DNA of 63,874 nt, the filler included, from an uncultured archaeon (GTDB lineage: Archaea > Iainarchaeota > Iainarchaeia > Iainarchaeales > 1-14-0-10-31-34): the NCBI GenBank assembly GCA_964442255.1. It is 6 parts of 5 records of this genome, joined end to end, with 100 filler letters (N's around TTAATTAATTAA, not from the genome) between each part and the next. Parts side by side here need not be neighbours in the genome. Positions count along the whole stretch, not along the records: positions 19,324 to 48,510 come from CAYTYC010000014.1; 5 more parts are not named here. One strand, written 5' to 3'. The position numbers and the translations under genes are program-made. Of this stretch, positions 18,248-43,958 are shown piece by piece (position 1 is the stretch's first letter; every line of letters starts with the position of its first letter). The notes beneath the pieces were generated by a model that saw only the letters and a program-made list of their open reading frames with translations, was not told where the DNA came from and did not search any database.

Positions 18248-18347
18248 NNNNNNNNNNNNNNNNNNNNNNNNNNNNNNNNNNNNNNNNNNNNNNNNNNNNN
18301 NNNNNNNNNNNNNNNNNNNNNNNNNNNNNNNNNNNNNNNNNNNNNNN

Positions 18348-30537: not shown

Positions 30538-31140
30538 ATGAGTGTAAAGCTGTTCAAATTCGATTTAAAGAGGGTTCTCTTAACCATCCTTCTGGCGCTG
30601 TTTTTTTACTGGAGGGAATGGTTTGATGCAGGGGACAACCTGCAGGTGGCGGGGGCAGTAATCGGCTCCTATTTTTTGGCGTACATTTTGTTTCTTTCAT
30701 ACGGAAAATTCAAGCTCTGGTTCAGGGGAAGCTGTGTTGCATTTGACTTGGGCGGGGTGTACAGCACCGGAGACTATTTGACGGAAAAAACCAGTGAAAG
30801 GCCGGGAATGCGGGAACTGGTTTCAGGGCTGAAGCACAGGCATATTGTTGCATTGCTTTCCAACCAGAACAGCGACGCGCATAAGGTTTTTGAAAAAAAA
30901 TTCAAACTGGATGAAAGGTTTGACGTTCAGGTTGTTTCAGGGGTTGAAGGAGTAAGAAAACCCAGTCCAGAGATTTACAAAATTTTGCTTAAAAGGGCAG
31001 GGGTTAAGCCGGAAAACTGCGTGTTTATTGACGATATGGCGGAAAACCTTGAGCAGCCCAAAAAGCTGGGAATGAAGGGAATCCATTTTCAGTCCGTCCA
31101 GCAGGTAAGGGAAGAACTCAAGAAATCAGGCTTTCTTTAG
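30538..31140 (+). CDS. HAD-family phosphatase with two N-terminal TMs
   Basis: FDLGGV; LSN; RKP; FIDD. Confidence 0.85.
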   Translation: MSVKLFKFDLKRVLLTILLALFFYWREWFDAGDNLQVAGAVIGSYFLAYILFLSYGKFKLWFRGSCVAFDLGGVYSTGDYLTEKTSERPGMRELVSGLKHRHIVALLSNQNSDAHKVFEKKFKLDERFDVQVVSGVEGVRKPSPEIYKILLKRAGVKPENCVFIDDMAENLEQPKKLGMKGIHFQSVQQVREELKKSGFL

Positions 31141-32073
31141 TGTAGTGATTGGGCGGGTCTGGACAATGAATATTTTCGCTTTTTCCAACGCAAATTCAAT
31201 GTCCTGCGGGAATTTGTAGTGGTTTTCAATTTTTCTGCACACTTCAGCCAGTTCCATTATTTGCCTTCCCGTAAGCTTCTGGGTTTCCCTGATGTTTTTT
31301 GGGACACTGACTTCTTTTGTTTTGCCTTTAATTCTTGAAAGCATTTTTTCCTGCGCGTTTACCTCAATGTTTTCAATGAACCCTTCCTCTTTGTTCACCA
31401 CATATTTGTCGGGGGTAATTTTTCCCGCGACAACGCTTTCACCCAATCCAAGCCCTGCTTCAATCACCATTTCGTTTTTGTTTTCGGTGATTGGGTTTAC
31501 TGTGAATGCCACGCCCGCAACACCGGAGTTGACCATTTTTTGCACGACAACCGCAACCCCCACCGCCTTTTTGCTTAACTTTTTTTCAATCCTGTAAAAA
31601 ATTGCGCGCGGAGTGAACAGCGAACTCCAGCACTTTTTGACCGCGTCAAGAAGCCCGCTTTTTGTGACGTTTGTGTAGCTTTCCAGCTCTCCGGCCCATG
31701 AGGCGTCGGCGGCGTCCTCCGCGGTTGCGCTGCTCCTTACAGCCACATACTCTGCCTTAAGGGAAAAAAATTCTTTCAATACGGCGGTTTCCACTTCTTT
31801 TGGCGTTTTTCCCTTTGCGATTAGTGAACGGATGTTTTTGGACGCGTTGTCAACTGACGCCGTTTTCTTTGGGTTGGCTTTTTTCAGCTCTGCCCCGATT
31901 TTTTTGTCCAGCGAGTTTTCCTTCAAAAACAAGTCAAAGGAATCCGTTAAAACCACGAAGCCGTTGGGAACCGGAATTCCAGCATTAAGCATTTCCCCTA
32001 ACTGTGCGCCCTTGCCCCCGGCAATTTTCACGCTTTTCCCGGAAAGCTTTTTGAAGGGCAAAACAAAGCTCAT
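31126..32073 (-). CDS. stand-alone PEP synthase/PPDK-type ATP-grasp domain protein
   Basis: GGKGAQLGEM; VAVRSSATAED; SWAG; VVVQKMV; GLGESVVAG..TPD; PQDIEFA; QTRPITTL then stop. Confidence 0.93.
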   Translation of the reverse strand: MSFVLPFKKLSGKSVKIAGGKGAQLGEMLNAGIPVPNGFVVLTDSFDLFLKENSLDKKIGAELKKANPKKTASVDNASKNIRSLIAKGKTPKEVETAVLKEFFSLKAEYVAVRSSATAEDAADASWAGELESYTNVTKSGLLDAVKKCWSSLFTPRAIFYRIEKKLSKKAVGVAVVVQKMVNSGVAGVAFTVNPITENKNEMVIEAGLGLGESVVAGKITPDKYVVNKEEGFIENIEVNAQEKMLSRIKGKTKEVSVPKNIRETQKLTGRQIMELAEVCRKIENHYKFPQDIEFALEKAKIFIVQTRPITTLKKA

Positions 32074-33557
32074 TTTCTTTTCCCTCCCTTTAACTTGATT
32101 ACTTTTCCGTGGCTTGCGTCAACCTGCACCAAATCGCCGTCTTTCAGGATGGAAGTCGCGTTTTTTGTGCCCACAACACACGGAACATTCAGTTCCCTGC
32201 TCACAATTGCGGCATGGCATGTCAATCCGCCCTGGTCTGTTATGATTGCGGCGCATTTCATGATTGCGGGCATAAGTTCGGGGTAGGTTGCACTGCTCAC
32301 CAAAATATCGCCTTTCTCCACTTTGCCCATTTCGGAAGCCTTGTTCACTATTTTCACTGCTCCTGTTGCAAGGCCCGGGGAAGCAATCTGCCCCACTAAT
32401 TGCCTTACGCCTTTTGAGTTTTTCTCCTGCTTCACGTTTTTGATCCAGAAGTTTTTTGCTTTTTTTCCAGTCAAAACGGATTTTTTTCCTTTCCCGGAAA
32501 GAAAAACAAGGTAGTGCTGCCTTTTCTTTGTTTCCACTTTCAAGAGGCGTTTCCCTGTTTTCAGGAAAGCCGAAAATTCTTCCGCCGTAAAAAACCACAA
32601 ATCGTTTAGCGGAACAAATGTTCTGCGCGAGGCTTCTTTTGCAATCAAGTCCACAAGGTAATAGGATAAAATCATTGCCTCTTTCCTGTAGCCCTTAAGG
32701 AAAACCGTTTTTCCCGCGAATTCAACCCAGTATTTTTCATCCGGAGTTAACTGCAGCTCTTTTTCCGCCCTGCGCAGCTCTTTTTTGAGGTTCTTTTTTT
32801 CGTTTAACGCGTTTTCCAGCATTTTTTCAATGTTTTTCTGCTTCAGGTCCATTAATTCCTCATGGAAAAAGTCTTTTGTGAGAGCCGGGCCGCGCCAGCC
32901 AAAAGTCAGCCAGGGGTATTTTTTGGAGTGCTTAAATAAGGCGGAGTCAATTTTTTGGGGGGAAAAGGTTTTTGCTTTTTTGGCGAGCTTAAGGAACTCT
33001 AGTCTTTCTTTTCCGGAAAGCGTTAATTCCGGCGGGGCAGTGAAAATGGTGAAATAATCGTTTTTTTTTCTTTTAAGCTTTTTTTGTTTTTCTTTTTTGC
33101 GCAGTATTTCTTCAAGCCTTTTTGTCAGCATTCCTGCAACGGTTTCAACCGCAACAATAGTGAAGCCGTAGTCGCACATTTTCAGGTCCAATTCCAGCAG
33201 GCGGTCAAAGGTTTTTTTGAGCCGCGCATTGCTCAGACTTTTTATTTTGTTTCCCTCGATTTTTGAATGGATTTTTTGGAGTTCTTTTGACGGCTCCAGA
33301 GTGTTTTTCCTCACTTTGGCGATGAATTTTTTGTCTTCGGAGAATTTTTGAAAGCATTTTTTGCCCAGAGCCTTCCATTCCCCCATATCTATCGCCCAGC
33401 GGGCTTTTCCTTCCTTCATTTCGGTTGCATCAACCGAAACACGCCCTCCCGCCAACTTCCAGTAGTTTTTGCTTGCCACCACTGCCTGGTTAAGGCAGAA
33501 AGGCAGCAGGGGGCAGTCGTATTCCCATATCGCTGTCTCAAGCCTGCGCATCCTCAC
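32070..33557 (-). CDS. helical domain plus C-terminal phospho-His swivel (PEP-utilising mobile) domain, copy 4
   Basis: GGLTCHAAIVSRELNVPCVVGT; ATGA overlap with the ATP-grasp gene. Confidence 0.9.
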   Translation of the reverse strand: MRMRRLETAIWEYDCPLLPFCLNQAVVASKNYWKLAGGRVSVDATEMKEGKARWAIDMGEWKALGKKCFQKFSEDKKFIAKVRKNTLEPSKELQKIHSKIEGNKIKSLSNARLKKTFDRLLELDLKMCDYGFTIVAVETVAGMLTKRLEEILRKKEKQKKLKRKKNDYFTIFTAPPELTLSGKERLEFLKLAKKAKTFSPQKIDSALFKHSKKYPWLTFGWRGPALTKDFFHEELMDLKQKNIEKMLENALNEKKNLKKELRRAEKELQLTPDEKYWVEFAGKTVFLKGYRKEAMILSYYLVDLIAKEASRRTFVPLNDLWFFTAEEFSAFLKTGKRLLKVETKKRQHYLVFLSGKGKKSVLTGKKAKNFWIKNVKQEKNSKGVRQLVGQIASPGLATGAVKIVNKASEMGKVEKGDILVSSATYPELMPAIMKCAAIITDQGGLTCHAAIVSRELNVPCVVGTKNATSILKDGDLVQVDASHGKVIKLKGGKRK

Positions 33558-33586
33558 ACCAGATAAAAATTATCGCAACTTCCTTA

Positions 33587-35256
33587 TTATTCTTTCAGTT
33601 TCTTGATTATCCCGTGGTTGGCGTTCACGTGGATTAAGTCGCCGTCTTTGAAGACTTTTGTGGCAAACTTTGTTCCCACAACGCACGGAATGTTTAGTTC
33701 GCGGGAAACAATTGCGGCATGGCAGGTGATTCCCCCCAAATCCGTTACAATTGCTGCTGCCTTCTTCATTGCAGGGACGATATTGGGGTTAGTGGCGTGC
33801 GACACCATCACATTTCCCAGCTTCATTTTATTCATTTCCTCCGGAAGGTTAATTAGCTTCGCGATGCCTTTCACCAGCCCCGGCACGGCAGTGGAGCCCT
33901 CCAGTTCGGTTATCCTGTATTCTTTCGGTTTTGGCGCCTCTTTTTCATTGATTTGCCTTGCCTTTTTTCCGGTAAGGGTTTGCTCTTTTCCGTTAACTGA
34001 AAGGTAAACGCTGAATTTGAATCTTTCATTCAGTTCATTTGAGTCAAAGTCGTGCTTCAGGATTGCTTTTTTGAATTCGCCTGGCCACATGAAGCGCAGC
34101 TGGTTTAAGGAGAGGCCAAGCCGTTTCCCTATTTCCCTCAAAAGCGGTTCATAGGAAAAAAAAGAGCAGTACATTGCGTCCTTTCTGATCGCCTTCTCGT
34201 AAACAATTCTTTGGGCTGCGCGGAGGAGAAGGCGGCGCTTTTTGTCCGGCTTGAGCAGCTTCAGCAATTTTCTCTGATTTTCTTTTGCCCCGGGAATCCT
34301 GGAGCGCATTTTCTTCAGGATGCCTGGAACCTCTTTTTCATCCTTCACCAGCCCCTTAAGCTGTTCAATGAAGTAATCCTTGTCCCACGCTGGGCCAACG
34401 TACATGTAAGGCAGCCACCTGTACCGCAAAAAATGCTTTTCAATTTCTTTGTTTAATTTTGGGTTAACGGAAGGAAGCGCCTCAATTACCTGTGAAACGG
34501 TTTTTTTGCGAAAAAGCTTTCTGGCTGAAGGGATTTTGAGTATTTTTTGCGCCAGCCCCACTATTTCGCGTTCCTGTTTTGCCTGGAATGTTTCATGGCG
34601 CGGGATTGTAAGCAGGCTGAAAGTTTCCCCCACCTTCAAGTCCGGATTTTTTTCCTGAATCCTTTTTTTCAGGTAATCTGAAAGCATTTCATGCTCAAAC
34701 TCTAAAACAAGCGAAAGCATTNNNNNNNNNNNNNNNNNNNNNNNNNNNNNNNNNNNNNNNNNNNNNNNNNNNNNNNNNNNNNNNNNNNNNNNNNNNNNNN
34801 NNNNNNNNNNNNNNNNNNNNNTTTCAGGTAATCTGAAAGCATTTCATGCTCAAACTCTAAAACAAGCGAAAGCATTCCGGCTTCATGGCAGCGGAGGTGG
34901 AGGTTCATGTGGCTGGAGAAAGTTTTTTCCAGTTCTTTGTCGCTTAGTTTGCTGAAATCTTTTTTCTGGAGTTTTTTGGATTCCTTTATCAGGCGGTTTG
35001 AAAGGGTTATGGTTAAATTGCTCCTTTCCAACAGCCATTCCGGGTTTTTAAGGGCCTTTTCCAGCACCCTCTTGCCCGCTTTTTGGTAGCCTTTTCTGGT
35101 GAAACAAAAGAACATGTCGCCTTCACGGAAAACAGCCAGAATGTCAACCGCGTTTCCCGCGTCCTTTTTCATTCCTTTCCCCCAGTACCTGAAGACGCTT
35201 TCAAACAGATGGTATTGGGCGCGCGGAATTTCCTCAAAAATAAACCAGTCCCTCAT
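33587..35256 (-). CDS. helical domain plus phospho-His swivel domain, copy 3 (about 504 aa, spans an assembly gap)
   Basis: GGITCHAAIVSRELNIPCVVGT; about 55 bp duplicated on both sides of the gap joins the two ORFs. Confidence 0.88.
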
Positions 35257-36719
35257 TTCTTCACCTTTTTCACTGTTCCTTCCGTTGCGTTCACTTCCAC
35301 CAAATCGTTGTCCTTTAAAAATGCTGTGGCGTATTTTGTGCCGATCACGCAGGGCTTTTTCAGTTCGCGGGAAACAATTGCCGCATGGCATGTTACGCCG
35401 CCTTCATCTGTCACAATTGCGGAGGCCTTGCGCATCGCAACCACGCAGGAGGGGTCGGTGTTTGGCGCAACCAAAACATCGCCTTTTTTGAAGTTCCGCA
35501 GGTGGGTTATGTGAAGGATTACCTTCACCCTGCCTTTTGCCTTGCCTTTCATTGCGGGCTGCCCCTTAAGCAAACCGGAAAACCTTTTGGGGGCGTCCTC
35601 CTTCACCAGCTTTTTCAGGAAAGCTTCTGCTTCCCTTCCGGTTAAAACGGTTTGGTTTCCCCTGAAATAAATTAAAAGGGAGTATTCTTCGCGTTTGTTC
35701 ACTTCATTTAAATCCACGGGCTTTCCGTTAAGCAAATCATAGAATTCAGGCAAAACAAAAAACCTGAGCTGGTTCAATGAAACAGGCCTGCGTAACGAAA
35801 CTTCCCTGAATGTTTTGTGGAAACAGAATTCAATGTAGCTTAAAAGCAGTTCCTCGTAGGCGCGCAAATAGAGAAGGCCCCTCAACGCATTGACATGGCG
35901 TTTTTGCTTTTTTGAGAGCTTAAGCTCTTTGCAGATTTTTTTTGCCGCCTTATTCTGCTTTCTGAAATTGGATTCAATTCGCTCTTTTTCTTTTGACAGT
36001 CCTTTTTTCTTGAGTTCCTTTATCCTTTTCAGGAAATCTTCCCTTGTCCATGCCCTGTGTGTGTTGAAGAAGGGGATTGCAAAGTATTTTTTTTCATGCT
36101 TTTTGAGGAGCCTTTCAAAGTCTTTTCCATGTGATTCCGCCACTTCAATCAAATCCAGTTCCTCCTGAAGGTAGTGGATTAGTTTGTTTGGGGTTGAGAT
36201 TTCCCCCATAAGCGAGTTGAGTTCGTTTTCCCTTCCCTCCAGGCGGAGTCTGGGAAGCAGGATTTTTTCCTGAATGAACGCGGAGGTTTTGTCAATGAAC
36301 ATTATTGTGGTGCTGGTCGCGCCGATGAAGGTTTCCTGTGGCCCCCGGTATTTTTTGAATTCTTTTGCAAGCTTTTTGTCTGAAAGCCCTGAAAGTTTTT
36401 TGTTCCTGAATTTTTGGTTTCCCTTAAGGGATTGGGTGTAAGAGTTCCATGCGCTTTTGAATTGTTTTTCCGCGAAAGCCGGATCCGGAATGTTTTTTTC
36501 AACGTATTCCAGCATCTTGTTCCTTGGTTCCTGCGGGCGGAAGTAAACCCTTTCCGTGCGGCTGTATTTCACCATCAAGTGTTTGAAGTGGCTTTTAACG
36601 AATTTTTGGTAGTTCCAGTATCCGCCCAAAATCATGCTCCAGTAAAACAGGGAAAACTGTCGGACTGCATACCTGTCCCAGTGGAATTTCTTGAATTCGG
36701 AAAGAATTTTCATCTTCAT
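35253..36719 (-). CDS. helical domain plus phospho-His swivel domain, copy 2
   Basis: GGVTCHAAIVSRELKKPCVIGT; ATGA overlaps on both sides. Confidence 0.9.
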   Translation of the reverse strand: MKMKILSEFKKFHWDRYAVRQFSLFYWSMILGGYWNYQKFVKSHFKHLMVKYSRTERVYFRPQEPRNKMLEYVEKNIPDPAFAEKQFKSAWNSYTQSLKGNQKFRNKKLSGLSDKKLAKEFKKYRGPQETFIGATSTTIMFIDKTSAFIQEKILLPRLRLEGRENELNSLMGEISTPNKLIHYLQEELDLIEVAESHGKDFERLLKKHEKKYFAIPFFNTHRAWTREDFLKRIKELKKKGLSKEKERIESNFRKQNKAAKKICKELKLSKKQKRHVNALRGLLYLRAYEELLLSYIEFCFHKTFREVSLRRPVSLNQLRFFVLPEFYDLLNGKPVDLNEVNKREEYSLLIYFRGNQTVLTGREAEAFLKKLVKEDAPKRFSGLLKGQPAMKGKAKGRVKVILHITHLRNFKKGDVLVAPNTDPSCVVAMRKASAIVTDEGGVTCHAAIVSRELKKPCVIGTKYATAFLKDNDLVEVNATEGTVKKVKK

Positions 36720-38242
36720 TTTGAAAGCCTCTTCACGGTTCCTTTTGTTGCGTCAACCTCAACCAGCAGGTTGTCTTCAAGGGCTTTTGTTGCGACTCTC
36801 GTGCCGATTACGCACGGAATTTTAAGCTCGCGGGAGATTATGGCAGCGTGGGAGGTGATTCCGCCCGCGTCTGTTACGATTGCGGAGGCCTTTTTCATTG
36901 CCGAAACCAGAAAAGGGTTTGTGGCGCTGCTCACCAAAATGTTTCCTTTCCTCATTTTAGCCAAATCCTTTGAGGAATTGAGTATTTTAACCGTTCCCTT
37001 GGCTTTTCCCGGAAAAGCGCAGTCCCCGGAAAACTCGTTAATGTGTGAAAGTTCTTCCTGCATTGCCTCAACCTCCTTCATCCACTTCCTTGTTTCATCC
37101 CCTCCGACAATCTTGAGGCTTTTTCCCTTTTTAAGCGCCATGCTTAACTTCATTCTTTCATTTAAAAGCGTCGGGGTAATTTTTCTTTTCACAAGAAAGG
37201 ACTCCATTTCCCAGGGCGCAACCATCCTTGTTTGGTTTACGCTCAGGTAAAGCCTTTTGGAGATTTCATCCAAAAGCGAGTCAACGTGGTAATAAGAGCG
37301 GGACATCAGCTCCTTGCGGAAAACCTTCAAAAAAGCCACCATCCGCAGGTCGGAAAAAAGCCTTTCCATTTCTTTTCCCATTTTGAGTTTTTTAAGGAGT
37401 TTTCTTTGCCTTGTTTTTATTTCGGTGTAGCGGTTTTTTTCCTTTAAAAGCAGTTTTTTTCGGAAACAGGTTTTTTGGAGCAAATGCTTCAGGGATTCAA
37501 TGAAGTGCGCTTTTCCCACAACAGGGCCCTCGTAAACGTACACAATCCAGGGAAACCTTTTTGCGTGCAGGGAAAACAGGTAGTCGATTTTTGGCGCGGT
37601 TCTCGGCAAAAGGGATTGAATTTTTTGGGGGCTCTTTTTTTTGAAGAGCTCAACCGCTTTCCTGTTCTTCAAAACATTTAAGGCGATTTCAATCAACGCA
37701 AGCTCCTCCATGCGCATATGGGTTTTGCGTGTTGGGGTGGACAAAAGGTTAAAGTATTCCGCGCTCTTGCCTTCCGGAACCTGCGGAAGGCTGTTAAAAC
37801 GGTTTTTGAGGTAAGAGGAAAAAATTGGCCTCTGCATTTCAAGCAATGAACAGGTTGTGCCCCATTCAAGCGCAAGAGAGGCCTTTTTATTGAAACTTTC
37901 GTAGAGCTGCAGGAGCTGTTTGTTGGTTTTTTTGGAGAGGGGCATGCGGCTGGCTTTTTTCGCGAAGGAAACAGCCTGCTTTCCGCTTTTAAGCAGTTCG
38001 CGTTCAATCCGCTTCATTATTTCAGGGCTTTTAATTATCTTTTTTAAAAGGTGTTCGCCTGCGGAGGTAAAGGTTGCGGGCTTTGCGTAATAGGTCATGC
38101 TGTCCTCTTTCCGCAGCAGGGAATAGTCGCCGAAATTTGAGCCAAACCGTTTCGCTGACCTGTCCACCGCAATCCAGTGCAGCACTATGGGATAATAGTG
38201 GATTTCCGGCTCGGTTTCAATGTCTTCCCATCCCATCTTCAT
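36716..38242 (-). CDS. helical domain plus phospho-His swivel domain, copy 1
   Basis: GGITSHAAIISRELKIPCVIGT. Confidence 0.9.
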   Translation of the reverse strand: MKMGWEDIETEPEIHYYPIVLHWIAVDRSAKRFGSNFGDYSLLRKEDSMTYYAKPATFTSAGEHLLKKIIKSPEIMKRIERELLKSGKQAVSFAKKASRMPLSKKTNKQLLQLYESFNKKASLALEWGTTCSLLEMQRPIFSSYLKNRFNSLPQVPEGKSAEYFNLLSTPTRKTHMRMEELALIEIALNVLKNRKAVELFKKKSPQKIQSLLPRTAPKIDYLFSLHAKRFPWIVYVYEGPVVGKAHFIESLKHLLQKTCFRKKLLLKEKNRYTEIKTRQRKLLKKLKMGKEMERLFSDLRMVAFLKVFRKELMSRSYYHVDSLLDEISKRLYLSVNQTRMVAPWEMESFLVKRKITPTLLNERMKLSMALKKGKSLKIVGGDETRKWMKEVEAMQEELSHINEFSGDCAFPGKAKGTVKILNSSKDLAKMRKGNILVSSATNPFLVSAMKKASAIVTDAGGITSHAAIISRELKIPCVIGTRVATKALEDNLLVEVDATKGTVKRLSK

Positions 38243-38282: not shown

Positions 38283-38669
38283 TTAAAGCCCTTTTCTCAC
38301 TCCCTTAAGGCCGACCCACGGAACCTTCGGGCCGACAATCACTGAATCCTGTTTCGGGAGGTCCATTCTCACCAGAGTTTTTCTGGAGTACTTGTTCCAT
38401 TTGCTCCACGCCTTAAGGTAATTGAAGTGGCAGTGAATCGCGAAAAAGAAAAGCAAAACCGCCGGAATAAAGTACAGTGCGTCAAAAAAGGCAAGCAAAA
38501 GCGACAAAAGCGCGAGGCCTAACACCGCCCAAAAAATTGCAAGGCGGTAAATTTCCTTTGCTTTCAGGGAAGCGTATTCCCTTCCGACAGCGTCACGCTT
38601 CCACCTTTCCATGCGCTTTGGGTCAAAGTTAATATCATGGGAATGCCCCTGCACCATTTTCAGGCTCAT
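38283..38669 (-). CDS. small 2-TM membrane protein, paralogue B
   Basis: GGTGA RBS before ATG 38669; LKMVQG...DPKR...AVGREY. Confidence 0.65.
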   Translation of the reverse strand: MSLKMVQGHSHDINFDPKRMERWKRDAVGREYASLKAKEIYRLAIFWAVLGLALLSLLLAFFDALYFIPAVLLFFFAIHCHFNYLKAWSKWNKYSRKTLVRMDLPKQDSVIVGPKVPWVGLKGVRKGL

Positions 38670-38687
38670 TTTTTTTTTCACCTTTCC

Positions 38688-38716
38688 TTTTGGCAAGCTT
38701 TTTTTCCAAAGAGTTT
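38688..38716 (-). repeat. short palindromic repeat family copy
   Basis: Reverse complement AAACTCTTTGGAAAAAAAGCTTGCCAAAA. Confidence 0.6.
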
Positions 38717-38759
38717 GTTTTTTTACCTTTTCCTTTTTTCACAATTCTATTTTTTTCGC

Positions 38760-39101
38760 CTAATCGTTATTCGGCCCGGAAATGCAGTCCACCCTTGTGA
38801 CAAACTTGCTTTCCCACATTTCCTTGTCGTCCAGTTTGTCCCCGTAAACAAACTGCGCCTTAAGCGTAAGCGGAATCAATGGAAGCAAAAGCACAAAGAA
38901 AAAAGGGCTTGCCAGCAGCCCGGCCAAAAAAACAACAAAGTCCACCGCCATAAAGGCGTAGTACTTTAATTTCAGGCTTTCAACTAACGTAATCCAGCGG
39001 AAGTACTGCCTTCCAACCGCTTTCCTTGAGTCGTATGGCAGTTTGCGCGGGTCTACAGTTACCTCAATGTTTTGCCCTTCAACAAGCTTCAGGTTTTGCA
39101 T
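38760..39101 (-). CDS. small 2-TM membrane protein, paralogue A
   Basis: GGTGA RBS; LKLVEG...DPRK...AVGRQY. Confidence 0.65.
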   Translation of the reverse strand: MQNLKLVEGQNIEVTVDPRKLPYDSRKAVGRQYFRWITLVESLKLKYYAFMAVDFVVFLAGLLASPFFFVLLLPLIPLTLKAQFVYGDKLDDKEMWESKFVTRVDCISGPNND

Positions 39102-39322: not shown

Positions 39323-39997
39323 CTATAACTGGCGCTTTTCGGCTATGTTTTCAAGCAAAAAAGGCATTGCCTTTTCCTCCGCCCTCCTCAAGTGCTCCTG
39401 AAAAGTTGAGGCGGAGCATTTCATTGCCTTTGCGAGCTTGCCTATGTTGGCTTTCTTGGGGTAATCGTAGTAGCCGTGCTGGTACGCCAATAGCAGTGCT
39501 TTTTTTTGTTTTTCCGTGAGTTTGGGCATCAGGTGGGGAATGAAGACATCGGAAATCTTTTGTTTCTTTATTGAAATGGATTCAACCTTCAGCCATTTCC
39601 TGCATTTTTTCAAAAACTCTGAGAGGTGCTTTTTGTCCCAGGAAGCGCATTCAAGGTATTCAAATCCGTCCGGCTTCACGATGACGGGCTTGATGAACAT
39701 TATTTCCGGGGAAACATACATCTGGAGGTGGGTTTCTTTTGCGGGGGCTTCAAGGGAATATGCAAGAAAGTTTCCCTCTATTTCAATGTTTTTCAGCCTC
39801 TTGTCTTTGCGGATGGATTTCATGTAATCCTGCACGTTTTTTTCCTCCCCCAGAATAAAGTGCCCTGAAGTGAGGCGCATTTTGCTTCCTTCCTTGTAGG
39901 TGTTCATCAAAAACGCGAGGATTGTGACGTTGTGTTTCTGGGCGCGGGGAATCGCCATGGAATTTTCGTGCCAGAACTTCATTTTCGCGATCCACAT
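39323..39997 (-). CDS. HTH-10 (Bat-like) transcriptional regulator
   Basis: LTEKQKKALLLAYQHGYYDYPKK...LAKAM...STFQEHLRRAE. Confidence 0.9.
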   Translation of the reverse strand: MWIAKMKFWHENSMAIPRAQKHNVTILAFLMNTYKEGSKMRLTSGHFILGEEKNVQDYMKSIRKDKRLKNIEIEGNFLAYSLEAPAKETHLQMYVSPEIMFIKPVIVKPDGFEYLECASWDKKHLSEFLKKCRKWLKVESISIKKQKISDVFIPHLMPKLTEKQKKALLLAYQHGYYDYPKKANIGKLAKAMKCSASTFQEHLRRAEEKAMPFLLENIAEKRQL

Positions 39998-43600: not shown

Positions 43601-43958
43601 TAAACTACGGCGGGTTAAAAATTCGCCGAATTTTTGTTCCCGCAAACGACCTGCAAAAACCCCGATTCATCCGCCCATTGAAACAGGCGGGGTTCCCGAA
43701 AAGGCACCAAACGCTTCTACATTGTCTTTCCACCTGTAAACTTCCGCCCATTGAAACAGGCGGGGTTCCCGAAAAGGCACCAAACGCTTCTACATTGNNN
43801 NNNNNNNNNNNNNNNNNNNNNNNNNNNNNNNNNNNNNNNNNNNNNNNNNNNNNNNNNNNNNNNNNNNNNNNNNNNNNNNNNNNNNNNNNNNNNNNNNTCT
43901 TTCCACCTGTAAACTTCCGCCCATTGAAACAGGCGGGGTTCCCGAAAAGGGTTTCTAA
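43601..43958 (+). mobile_element. non-coding mini-element with internal 73-bp tandem amplification
   Basis: Homologous to 63713-63823 (inverted); hairpins at both ends; core TCCGCCCATTGAAACAGGCGGGGTTCCCGAAAAGG occurs 3 times. Confidence 0.55.

What the first reader, a model, noticed from the sequence alone, without database searches (positions are those of the whole stretch)
31126..38242. Modular split dikinase array: one ATP-grasp subunit and four diverged substrate-domain/His-swivel paralogues
Seen: five co-oriented genes, with three of the four junctions being ATGA overlaps. Four ~490-510 aa proteins end in an intact GGxT(C/S)HAAI(V/I)SREL.PCV.GT swivel domain. Their ~400-aa helical N-termini share only sparse motifs (T-x-P/S-T-P; H..(K/R)(Y/F).W...GP; RK..M; E...R......N.L.F...EF). 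The fifth gene is a complete ATP-grasp domain that stops at QTRPITTL, and no PEP/pyruvate TIM-barrel gene lies in the window. Established: PEP synthase/PPDK is ordered ATP-grasp, swivel, barrel, whereas rifampin phosphotransferase (RPH) is ATP-grasp, helical substrate domain, C-terminal swivel. Inference: this is a split RPH-like system in which one shared ATP module loads phosphate onto interchangeable acceptor-specific modules. It could be a combinatorial small-molecule or antibiotic kinase battery, or a His phosphorelay. All four keep the Thr two residues before the His, which is the regulatory phosphosite in PPDK/PEPS. I know of no characterised system with this layout, though such proteins may be common and generically annotated in DPANN/CPR genomes.
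Basis: partly seen in the sequence, partly recalled or inferred. Interest (0 to 1): 0.9.

Follow-up and report, generated by a model that had tools for sequence, protein, structure and literature searches.

The report
Split dikinase with four acceptor modules
A tiny-genome archaeon has one gene for the ATP-binding half of a two-part kinase and four very different genes for the substrate-binding, phosphate-carrying half; the two-part enzyme type is already known, but this one-to-many layout, common in ultra-small microbes, is untested and its substrates are unknown.

Summary
Five co-oriented minus-strand genes encode four 488-508 aa paralogues (diverged N-domain of about 400 aa, conserved C-terminal His swivel) and one 315-aa stand-alone ATP-grasp. 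The N run inside the third paralogue is a scaffolding artefact: public contigs bridge it. Models of the two paralogues folded (P1, and the most divergent, P2) align end to end with the rifampin-binding plus swivel domains of rifampin phosphotransferase (Z 19.8 and 19.9). The genome's only two PEP/pyruvate barrels sit in full-length PEP synthase and PPDK. So this is a split RPH-type dikinase. What differs is the 4:1 ratio, a PEP-synthase-like swivel (Thr, not Met, two residues before His) and a shorter substrate domain. The layout recurs in CPR bacteria and DPANN archaea: up to 9 modules per 17-kb locus and about 16 per genome, never more than one stand-alone ATP-grasp per locus. A syntenic Iainarchaeum locus also keeps a regulator, two small membrane proteins and a HAD hydrolase. 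Substrates are unknown and trans-phosphorylation is inferred. This scan flagged the same system on other genomes at least 8 times. My paper searches found no description of the arrays.

The parts
39323..39997 (-). HTH_10-family transcription regulator at the head of the co-oriented gene row
   Evidence: PF04967 E 1.5e-19. It is 54% identical to the gene in the same position of the syntenic locus L023, and is also found upstream of S genes in L019 and L026.
38760..39101 (-). Small membrane protein TM1 (113 aa), no Pfam family
   Evidence: It is 38% identical to the ORF in the same position in L023 and weakly similar to TM2 (E 1e-7 over 31 aa).
38283..38696 (-). Small membrane protein TM2 (137 aa), no Pfam family above cut-off
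   Evidence: It is 30% identical to the ORF in the same position in L023.
36716..38242 (-). P1: substrate-domain plus His-swivel module (508 aa, His465)
   Evidence: PF00391 E 6e-22. AF2 model pLDDT 93.9. RPH 5fbt Z 19.8, rmsd 5.0, 431 residues aligned, model 1-507 = RPH 326-867.
35253..36719 (-). P2: most divergent module (488 aa, His445); it has R-x-x-E-E where the family has K-x-x-R-K
   Evidence: PF00391 E 7e-25. AF2 pLDDT 91.6. RPH 5fbt Z 19.9, rmsd 4.8, 426 aligned. Sister to an Iainarchaeum gene (40% identity).
33587..35256 (-). P3: module of 504 aa once the scaffold gap is closed
   Evidence: PF00391 E 1.5e-23 on the C-terminal piece. Open 504-aa frame after collapsing the duplicate. 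Contigs bridge the gap.
34722..34821 (.). 100-N scaffolding gap inside P3, an artefact
   Evidence: An exact 55-nt duplicate flanks it: 34667-34721 = 34822-34876. Contigs of runs X1 and X2 join 34666 to 34822.
32070..33557 (-). P4: module (495 aa from GTG, His448)
   Evidence: PF00391 E 1.6e-25. Matches the family profile over positions 4-509 at E 1.5e-147.
31126..32073 (-). G: stand-alone ATP-grasp (PPDK_N) subunit, 315 aa, the only one in the genome
   Evidence: PF01326 E 6e-97. PDB sequence hits: PEPS 8a8e 3.5e-64, RPH 5fbs 2.4e-55, HpeI 9goj 6.3e-46. The genome's other PPDK_N copies lie in full-length PEPS and PPDK.
30538..31140 (+). HAD-IA hydrolase (200 aa) with a hydrophobic N-terminal stretch, convergent with G and overlapping its 3' end by 15 nt
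   Evidence: PF00702 and PF13419. TIGR01509 at 58.1 bits against a cut-off of 29.4. Relatives lie next to or inside S arrays in 6 other loci.

Best explanation
The locus encodes a split, AMP-forming small-molecule dikinase of the rifampin-phosphotransferase / HpeHI type. One ATP-grasp subunit (G) serves four specificity subunits (P1-P4).

Inferred cycle, by homology with RPH, PpsAB and HpeHI:
1. G binds Mg-ATP.
2. The C-terminal swivel domain of a P subunit docks on G.
3. Its His (465, 445, 448, and the equivalent in P3) attacks the beta-phosphate. The gamma-phosphate is lost as Pi and AMP is released.
4. The phospho-His swivel swings back onto its own helical N-domain.
5. There a conserved basic cluster (K306/R309/K310 in P1) positions the phosphate for transfer to a nucleophile, most likely a hydroxyl, of a small molecule bound in the cleft.

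Because the N-domains are old, diverged subfamilies, each P most likely takes a different acceptor. The acceptors are unknown. The neighbouring HTH_10 regulator, two small membrane proteins and a HAD hydrolase probably belong to the same unit.

Shown: domain make-up, fold, gene arrangement, distribution. Inferred: trans-phosphorylation, sharing of G, and the chemistry of the acceptors.
For: Domains: G is a complete PPDK_N. Each P has a C-terminal PEP-utilizers swivel carrying the His motif.

Fold: the P1 and P2 models (pLDDT 93.9 and 91.6) align over nearly their whole length only with RPH.
- P1 against 5fbt: Z 19.8, rmsd 5.0, 431 aligned.
- P2 against 5fbt: Z 19.9, rmsd 4.8, 426 aligned.
- N-domains alone: Z 16.6-16.7 over 318-336 residues, against RPH 321-752.

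Sequence: the family profile matches RPH 512-865 at E 3.5e-27. It places K306 on RPH Arg666 and K310 on Lys670. These residues are needed for the second phosphotransfer in RPH (PMC4844700, passages).

Precedent: two-component enzymes of this build work in trans, and their His is essential (PMC12167813, sections 8 and 10).

One engine:
- The genome has one stand-alone G and four P. Its only barrels are in full-length PEPS and PPDK.
- Swivels are 53-59% identical between paralogues, against 18-28% for the N-domains.
- G is 47-62% identical to 13 of the 14 stand-alone G of CPR and DPANN loci aligned, and 38% to the fourteenth (L048).
- ATGA overlaps couple the genes.

Recurrence:
- In 64 fetched loci, 33 hold 2 or more S genes, 20 hold 4 or more, and the maximum is 9. 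Fourteen loci hold exactly one stand-alone G and none holds two, giving 168 S ORFs against 14 G ORFs.
- Close relatives G003, G007 and G008 carry S arrays ending in one G.

Old subfamilies: 76 of 79 S proteins that have a same-locus paralogue find their best match in another locus.

Complex prediction of P1 + G + ATP + Mg gave weak support: score 0.32, best of 3 controls 0.00. That mark was reached by 116 of 157 solved complexes and 2 of 215 mismatched pairs, but at 0.60 or under by only 18 of those 157 and by both mismatches. The runs agree in at least 81% of contacts, and the partner's pLDDT is at least 85. The pass may reflect likeness to RPH.
Against: - There is no biochemical or expression evidence for this locus.
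- The complex score is only a weak pass.
- The residue aligned with RPH Glu667, essential there, is Val in P1.
- P2 has E-E where over 90% of the family has R and most have K, so P2 may act differently or not at all in the second step.
- G and the swivels are closer by sequence to PEP synthase than to RPH or HpeI. They keep Thr two residues before His, where RPH, HpeH, PpsA and CreH have Met (PMC12167813 section 8). The CPR/DPANN clade is therefore not simply a member of the phenolic-kinase subfamily.
- By my reading, 6 of 15 S-positive relatives showed no dedicated G. These are G011, G016, G022, G029, G033 and G035; most have a single or divergent S, and G016 is 83% complete.
- No catabolic or biosynthetic genes nearby point to a substrate.
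- Only P1 and P2 were folded.
Confidence: 0.7

Rival explanations
1. Xenobiotic or antibiotic inactivation battery. Each module phosphorylates and so disarms a different toxic small molecule made by hosts or neighbours, as RPH does with rifamycins.
For: RPH is the only solved structure that matches the whole module. Copy number varies from 0 to about 16 among related genomes of about 1 Mb, as expected for accessory, environment-driven genes. A dedicated regulator sits upstream.
Against: No protein reaches the NCBIfam rifamycin-phosphotransferase cut-offs: NF041857 gives 42-70 bits for the modules and 268 for G, against 999. The Glu667 equivalent is not conserved. Nothing identifies any toxin as a substrate. 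This rival concerns the biological role only and shares the mechanism of the main explanation.
Confidence: 0.15
2. Activation enzymes rather than end-point kinases. Phosphorylation makes a leaving group for a following condensation, elimination or transfer step, as in the prodigiosin ligases PigC/RedH. Alternatively it makes an acyl phosphate that a phosphotransacylase then uses.
For: G and the modules match the NCBIfam PigC and RedH models about as well as the RPH models. PTA_PTB phosphotransacylase genes lie inside or beside S arrays in 4 of 65 loci, and hexapeptide transferases in 4 of 65.
Against: All those matches are far below cut-off and mostly cover only the shared ATP-grasp and swivel. 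The window's own locus has no PTA or transferase. Its conserved partners are a regulator, two membrane proteins and a HAD hydrolase.
Confidence: 0.1
3. The modules work without G. G pairs with only one of them (or with none), and the others take phosphate from another donor or merely exchange phosphate between compounds.
For: HpeH alone transfers phosphate from 4-phosphoacetophenone to acetovanillone (PMC12167813, abstract). By my reading, 6 of 15 S-positive relatives lack a detectable dedicated G. Only a weak complex score was obtained.
Against: The swivel domains are far more conserved than the N-domains. Of the 8 related genomes with two or more full modules, 7 have a stand-alone G, usually at the end of the array. 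Fused G+module proteins exist in CPR (L027, L059).
Confidence: 0.1
4. A His-phosphorelay or protein kinase system, in which the phospho-His is passed to proteins rather than small molecules.
For: The swivel domain is shared with PTS enzyme I. The Thr two residues before His, a regulatory site in PEPS/PPDK, is kept.
Against: The N-domain is the RPH small-molecule-binding fold, with the basic phosphotransfer cluster kept. No HPr-like or receiver gene lies in the locus. No PF03618 regulator is in the genome.
Confidence: 0.04
5. A split PEP synthase whose barrel is encoded elsewhere.
For: By sequence, G and the swivels are closest to PEP synthase.
Against: The genome's only two PF02896 barrels lie inside complete PEPS (802-aa frame) and PPDK (881-aa frame) genes. 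The modules carry an RPH-type domain instead of a barrel.
Confidence: 0.01

Closest known systems
Two-component small-molecule dikinases: HpeHI (Rhodococcus), PpsAB phenylphosphate synthase (Thauera), CreHI (Corynebacterium), PasAB (Desulfatiglans)
   Same: Both have a separate ATP-grasp subunit plus a subunit made of an RPH-like substrate domain and a C-terminal His swivel, encoded by adjacent genes. G matches the HpeI crystal structure 9GOJ at E 6.3e-46 (PDB code confirmed). As reported for HpeH, RPH is the only solved structure spanning the whole module (PMC12167813 section 8).
   Different: - Four (elsewhere up to about 16) specificity subunits per ATP-grasp, instead of one.
- Modules of about 500 aa rather than 71 kDa.
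- Thr, not Met, two residues before the His.
- Swivel and ATP-grasp closer to PEP synthase.
- No aromatic-catabolism genes nearby.
- Hosts are DPANN/CPR organisms with genomes of about 1 Mb.
Rifampin phosphotransferase RPH (PDB 5FBS/5FBT/5FBU, 5HV1)
   Same: The order of substrate domain then swivel and the fold are the same (Z 19.8-19.9). Basic residues lie at the positions of Arg666 and Lys670. The His lies within 50 residues of the C-terminus.
   Different: RPH is one chain with the ATP-grasp fused at the N-terminus. The Glu667 equivalent is not kept. Structure-aligned identity is 13-19%. Scores are far below the NCBIfam RPH cut-offs.
PEP synthase / pyruvate phosphate dikinase
   Same: The ATP-grasp and swivel are the closest sequence relatives (8a8e: 3.5e-64 for G and 3.5e-25 for the P1 swivel). 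The GGxT(C/S)H motif with Thr is shared.
   Different: There is no PEP/pyruvate TIM barrel. The swivel is C-terminal, not central. The substrate domain is RPH-like.
Prodigiosin ligases PigC/RedH/HapC (RPH-like ATP-dependent condensing enzymes)
   Same: They share the ATP-grasp and the C-terminal swivel. Matches are at E 1e-67 to 1e-71 for G and 1e-14 to 1e-20 for the modules.
   Different: They are single-chain enzymes of about 880 aa. All scores here are far below their cut-offs of 1300-1350 bits. No pigment genes are present.

Membership tests
Two-component RPH-type small-molecule dikinases (PpsAB/CreHI/HpeHI) | Separate ATP-grasp subunit homologous to the RPH/PEPS nucleotide domain | tested here: met
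   PF01326 E 6e-97. HpeI 9goj E 6.3e-46 and RPH 2.4e-55. 315-aa stand-alone gene.
Two-component RPH-type small-molecule dikinases (PpsAB/CreHI/HpeHI) | Partner subunit made of an RPH rifampin-binding-like domain followed by a C-terminal swivel | tested here: met
   P1 Z 19.8 (431 aligned) and P2 Z 19.9 (426 aligned) against RPH 321/326-867. The profile matches RPH 512-865 at E 3.5e-27. P3 and P4 were not folded, but match the same profile at E 1e-147 or better.
Two-component RPH-type small-molecule dikinases (PpsAB/CreHI/HpeHI) | Catalytic His in a T/SxxGGxxxH motif within 50 residues of the C-terminus | tested here: met
   His lies 43-47 residues from the C-terminus in all four. It is invariant in 72 aligned sequences.
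Two-component RPH-type small-molecule dikinases (PpsAB/CreHI/HpeHI) | Met two residues before the His, as reported for RPH, HpeH, PpsA and CreH | tested here: not met
   All four have Thr, and T463 is 90% or more conserved in the family. RPH shows GGLMTH. The statement on Met comes from PMC12167813 section 8.
Two-component RPH-type small-molecule dikinases (PpsAB/CreHI/HpeHI) | ATP-dependent phosphorylation of a small molecule that needs both components and yields AMP and Pi | not testable with these tools
   Needs purified proteins. The complex prediction gave only a weak pass (score 0.32, best of 3 controls 0.00).
Rifampin phosphotransferase (RPH) | Single chain: ATP-grasp, rifampin-binding domain, swivel | tested here: not met
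   ATP-grasp and modules are separate genes.
Rifampin phosphotransferase (RPH) | Arg666-Glu667 pair and Lys670 at the second active site | tested here: not met
   Profile alignment gives K306 for Arg666, V307 for Glu667 and K310 for Lys670 in P1. P2 has R, A and E at those positions. The roles of these residues are from PMC4844700 (passages).
Rifampin phosphotransferase (RPH) | NCBIfam equivalog score (NF041857 cut-off 999; NF000283 cut-off 1700) | tested here: not met
   G scores 268 and 180 bits. The modules score 42-70 and 30-47 bits.
PEP synthase / PPDK | C-terminal PEP/pyruvate-binding TIM barrel (PF02896) | tested here: not met
   No PF02896 in the five proteins. The genome's two copies lie in full-length enzymes on other contigs.
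PEP synthase / PPDK | Regulatory Thr served by a PSRP/PDRP kinase-phosphatase (PF03618) | tested here: inconclusive
   The Thr is present, but no PF03618 match was found in the 93.8%-complete genome. The control search rang in only 4 of 14 reference genomes.
Prodigiosin ligases PigC/RedH | NCBIfam equivalog score (cut-offs 1300 and 1350) | tested here: not met
   G scores 228-239 bits and the modules 50-70 bits.

The most novel reading that the evidence does not exclude
The CPR/DPANN arrays are a modular 'capture' system for organisms that cannot make their own building blocks. One conserved ATP-grasp engine drives a changeable set of specificity modules, each of which phosphorylates a different membrane-permeant compound taken from the host or surroundings (lipid alcohols, vitamins, phenolics and the like). 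The AMP-forming chemistry lets it trap these at very low concentration. The conserved HAD hydrolase, small membrane proteins and dedicated regulator would form the release, uptake and induction parts. The modules are old subfamilies shared between ultra-small bacteria and archaea, which would make this a common, exchangeable toolkit of the episymbiotic lifestyle.
Probability: 0.25. Interest if true: 0.8.

Novelty: new variant of a known kind. Interest (0 to 1): 0.55.

Why it matters
CPR bacteria and DPANN archaea have genomes of about 1 Mb. Some nevertheless spend 1-2% of that on up to about 16 diverged copies of this module, which implies strong and varied selection on a function nobody has assayed.

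If one ATP-grasp really charges many specificity subunits, this would be a natural plug-in kinase platform. Its substrates would show what these symbionts take from, or defend against in, their hosts.

It also corrects annotation. These genes are named 'PEP-utilizing enzyme', 'phosphoenolpyruvate synthase' or, in one DPANN study, 'phenylphosphate synthase' taken as a sign of phenol degradation (PMC8091004, passages). None of these names has been tested.

Tried and rejected
- Split PEP synthase: rejected, because both barrels in the genome lie in full-length enzymes and the modules have an RPH-type domain.
- Anti-phage defence: PADLOC gave no match for G, P1, P2, P4 or the two small membrane proteins.
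- Regulatory Thr: no PF03618 gene in the own genome, which is 93.8% complete.
- Expression: no RNA holder listed for window 34822-38242. Only two DNA runs of one study hold it, and one may be the source.
- ESM Atlas on P1 residues 1-400: the top named cluster is 'PEP-utilising enzyme mobile domain-containing protein' (0.95). One cluster has PF27448 Rph_4th on 21% of members. A T4 Gp59 row at 0.92 is taken as chance. These are leads only.
- NCBIfam: no model reaches its cut-off for G or any module.
- The original phenylphosphate synthase papers (PMC529068, PMC1636309) are not held. What I say of PpsAB comes from PMC12167813 and PMC7500099.
- Paper searches for a description of the arrays found none that I could see. 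One search ('PEP-utili' with 'Patescibacteria') returned 0 papers. In the 15 papers listed (of 712 holding two or more of its terms), 'PEP-utilizing' and 'swivel' occur 0 times. One search also returned 0.
- I did not try to name substrates from pocket residues, because model coordinates cannot be read in the script box.


Full report
**What is in the sequence**

On the minus strand of window 31126-38242 lie five co-oriented genes:
- P1 36716-38242 (508 aa)
- P2 35253-36719 (488 aa)
- P3 33587-35256
- P4 32070-33557 (495 aa)
- G 31126-32073 (315 aa)

ATGA start/stop overlaps join P1/P2, P2/P3 and P4/G. P3 and P4 are 29 nt apart, and P4 more likely starts at the ATG two codons inside the listed GTG.

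G is a complete PPDK_N ATP-grasp (PF01326, E 6e-97). Each P ends in a PEP-utilizers swivel (PF00391, E 6e-22 to 2e-25) and has no Pfam match in its first ~400 residues. All four carry GGxT(C/S)HAAI(V/I)SRE, with the His 43-47 residues from the C-terminus. Pairwise identity is 53-59% in the last ~104 columns but only 18-28% in the N-part.

P3 is cut by 100 N (34722-34821). The run is flanked by an exact 55-nt duplicate. Collapsing it in a script gives an open 504-aa frame. Contigs from two public DNA runs of one microbial-mat study join 34666 directly to 34822: a 4780-nt contig in X1, which may be the source sample, and a 408-nt contig in X2. The gap is a scaffolding artefact and P3 is intact.

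**Genome context**

The window is a string of contigs. The locus lies on contig C14 (window 19324-48510) of a 1.28-Mb genome in 51 contigs, 93.8% complete. Topoisomerase VI genes lie next door, so this is an archaeon.

The genome holds six swivel domains: the four P plus one 802-aa and one 881-aa frame. Those two frames also carry PPDK_N and the genome's only two PEP/pyruvate barrels, so they are ordinary PEP synthase and PPDK. G is the only stand-alone ATP-grasp. The 'split PEP synthase with a barrel elsewhere' reading is thus contradicted.

**What the N-domains are**

I folded P1 with a 72-row alignment (pLDDT 93.9, pTM 0.91).
- Foldseek against the PDB put the six RPH entries first (E 7e-13 to 4e-10, TMq 0.42-0.60). 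Every other hit covers only the swivel.
- VIA-align gave 5fbt Z 19.8, rmsd 5.0 A, 431 residues, model 1-507 on RPH 326-867.
- For the N-domain alone it gave 5hv3 Z 16.6, 336 residues, model 1-396 on RPH 326-751.

I then folded the most divergent paralogue, P2 (pLDDT 91.6).
- Whole model: 5fbt Z 19.9, rmsd 4.8, 426 residues.
- N-domain alone: 5hv2 Z 16.7, 318 residues.

By sequence, a profile of the family matches RPH 512-865 at E 3.5e-27. In that alignment the nearly invariant K306 falls on RPH Arg666 and K310 on Lys670, while Glu667 is Val in P1. Arg666, Glu667 and Lys670 form the second phosphotransfer site of RPH, and Arg666 and Glu667 are essential there (PMC4844700, passages read). P2 has R-A-Y-E-E at these positions.

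P3 and P4 were not folded. They match the same profile from end to end at E 1e-147 or better.

**Comparison with what is known**

HpeHI of Rhodococcus is a two-component dikinase. HpeI is an ATP-grasp homologous to that of RPH (crystal structure 9GOJ), and HpeH carries the rifampin-binding-like and swivel domains. The His is essential, the two proteins form only a transient complex, and PpsAB and CreHI are homologues (PMC12167813: abstract, sections 8 and 10, data availability). PasAB is a further example (PMC7500099, passages). G matches 9GOJ at E 6.3e-46.

The differences are real, however.
- That paper notes that RPH, HpeH, PpsA and CreH have Met two residues before the His, whereas PEPS, PPDK and PtsI have the regulatory Thr.
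- All four paralogues here, and 90% or more of 72 relatives, have Thr.
- Both G and the swivels score better against archaeal PEP synthase 8a8e (3.5e-64 and 3.5e-25) than against RPH (2.4e-55 and 2e-9).
- No NCBIfam model (PEPS, RPH, PigC/RedH, PRK08296) comes near its cut-off.
- The regulatory kinase for that Thr (PF03618) was not found in the genome.

**Distribution**

P1 has at least 880 relatives at E 1e-3 or better among 7997 scored candidates. Those that carry a name are called 'PEP-utilizing enzyme', 'phosphoenolpyruvate synthase' or 'hypothetical', and come from Patescibacteria, Micrarchaeota, Diapherotrites and Nanoarchaeota. The N-domain alone (residues 1-400) finds 1031 cluster representatives at E 1e-3 or better, 493 at 1e-10 and 31 at 1e-30, among 1.84 billion.

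I fetched 64 loci from species-representative genomes and scanned them with a profile of the family and with G. The loci were chosen for likeness to P1 and carry flanks of at most 8 kb.

| Feature | Loci (of 64) |
|---|---|
| At least one module gene with an N-domain | 60 |
| Two or more | 33 |
| Four or more | 20 |
| Seven or more | 5 |
| Exactly one stand-alone G | 14 |
| Two stand-alone G | 0 |

The maximum is 9 modules (L024, L046). In total there are 168 module ORFs against 14 G ORFs.

Fused forms also exist:
- L027 and L059 show the RPH order, G then module.
- L062 (Woesearchaeota) has an open frame of 3249 aa holding eight swivel-ended modules.

Among 40 relatives plus the own genome, the tally (37 of 41) mostly reflects PEPS/PPDK swivels. 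By my reading of its rows, matches that include the N-domain occur in 15 of 41 genomes, at 1 to about 16 copies. Within the own family:
- G003 has 5, G005 has 11, G007 has 3 and G008 has 7.
- G001, G004 and G006 show only PEPS-type matches, and G002 shows none.

G003, G007 and G008 have arrays that end in one G. G005 has two arrays, each followed by a G cut by a contig end. G039 has about 16 modules and one stand-alone G on another contig.

Six module-positive genomes (G011, G016, G022, G029, G033, G035), mostly with a single or divergent module, showed no dedicated G.

**Age of the paralogues**

Of 79 full-length modules with a same-locus paralogue, 76 have their best BLAST match in another locus.

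In a FastTree of 110 modules, P1, P3 and P4 fall in a supported clade of 30 rows (18 bacterial, 9 archaeal). P2 is sister (support 100) to an Iainarchaeum gene, inside a clade of 27 rows that is mostly bacterial. Supported branches force at least 12 changes of the Bacteria/Archaea label. Long branches, bin mislabelling and the biased choice of loci limit this result. It shows old subfamilies shared by CPR and DPANN, not a direction of transfer.

By contrast, G is 47-62% identical to 13 of the 14 stand-alone G proteins aligned from both domains, and 38% to the fourteenth, L048.

**Neighbours**

Upstream on the same strand lie an HTH_10 regulator (39323-39997) and two small, weakly paralogous membrane proteins (38760-39101 and 38283-38696). 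Convergent with G lies a HAD-IA hydrolase (30538-31140; TIGR01509 above cut-off) with a hydrophobic N-terminus.

Locus L023 (an Iainarchaeum MAG) has the same order: HTH_10 (54% identical), TM1 (38%), TM2 (30%), two modules, G and HAD (37%), all on one strand.

Over the 65 loci (the 64 plus the window), the commonest neighbour families are:

| Neighbour family | Loci (of 65) |
|---|---|
| TrmB-type regulators | 8 |
| HAD hydrolases | 7 |
| PIN | 4 |
| PTA_PTB | 4 |
| Hexapeptide transferases | 4 |
| HTH_10 | 4 |
| HD hydrolases | 3 |

These are modest frequencies. They suggest a regulated unit that often includes a phosphohydrolase.

**Does G bind a module?**

One complex job (P1 and G with their alignments, plus ATP and Mg) gave 'weak support': score 0.32 (runs 0.30, 0.34, 0.32) against a best of 3 controls of 0.00.
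- That mark was reached by 116 of 157 solved complexes and 2 of 215 mismatched pairs.
- At 0.60 or under it was reached by only 18 of those 157 and by both mismatches.
- The runs agree in at least 81% of contacts, and the partner's pLDDT is at least 85.
- The calibration did not include ligands or my own alignments, and the pass may come from likeness to RPH.

This fits the transient HpeH-HpeI complex, but it is not strong evidence.

**Verdict**

The locus is a split RPH-type dikinase in which one ATP-grasp most likely charges four diverged specificity subunits. The mechanism is inferred from RPH, PpsAB and HpeHI (confidence 0.7).

It is a new variant of a known kind. The split enzyme is known. 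The one-to-many arrays, the PEPS-like swivel and the spread through CPR and DPANN are not described in any paper my searches reached. One DPANN study did call such genes phenylphosphate synthase (PMC8091004), and one of its MAGs is my locus L051, which holds seven modules.

Earlier follow-ups in this scan reached the same reading on at least eight other genomes. They gave me the lead to the HpeHI paper, which I then read myself.

Noticed in passing
window 34722-34821: 100-N scaffold gap inside P3, flanked by an exact 55-nt duplicate. Similar 100-N runs lie at 18248-18347 and 43798-43897. The window itself is a chain of contigs joined by 44N-12-44N spacers.
   Followed up: yes
L062:3-9749 (Woesearchaeota MAG); also P0121 (1500 aa), P0123 (2309 aa), P0125 (1506 aa): Open frames with several modules fused head to tail in one frame: eight swivel-ended modules in a 3249-aa frame in L062, and 3-4 N-domain matches in the long proteins. 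Whether these are true giant multi-module proteins or assembly or gene-calling effects was not checked.
   Followed up: partly
window 38283-39101 and L023:6015-6666: Two small paralogous membrane proteins (113 and 137 aa, no family) sit between the HTH_10 regulator and the first module, and are conserved in the syntenic Iainarchaeum locus. They may form an uptake or anchoring part of the system.
   Followed up: partly
L044, L047, L048, L073 (PTA_PTB); L044, L051, L056, L073 (hexapeptide transferase): Phosphotransacylase and hexapeptide-repeat transferase genes lie inside or beside module arrays in Woesearchaeota and Nanoarchaeota-type loci. This hints that some modules may make acyl phosphates or feed transferases.
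   Followed up: no
P0077 and other hits of about 600 aa: Some relatives are about 100 aa longer. One carries an N-terminal ArsR-type HTH (PF12840, PF25212) fused to the module, so it may be both a sensor-regulator and an enzyme.
   Followed up: no
G009 and G040 (717-718-aa frames), G037:C1:228244-230247 (678-aa frame): Related genomes carry single-chain proteins with a G-like ATP-grasp and a swivel, but with a middle part that the module profile does not recognise. These may be a further, fused branch of the family.
   Followed up: no
window 30538-31140: The HAD hydrolase has Gly where most HAD phosphatases have the second Asp of motif I (FDLGGV), and about 60 hydrophobic N-terminal residues that the HAD neighbours checked in other loci (L065, L073) appear not to have, since their Pfam match starts near residue 15 (read). 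The motif reading is mine and was not tested.
   Followed up: partly
locus titles: Several loci with typical module arrays come from bins titled Gammaproteobacteria, Methanosarcinales, Methylomirabilota or Planctomycetota. Given their content they are probably mis-binned CPR/DPANN contigs. This was not checked.
   Followed up: no
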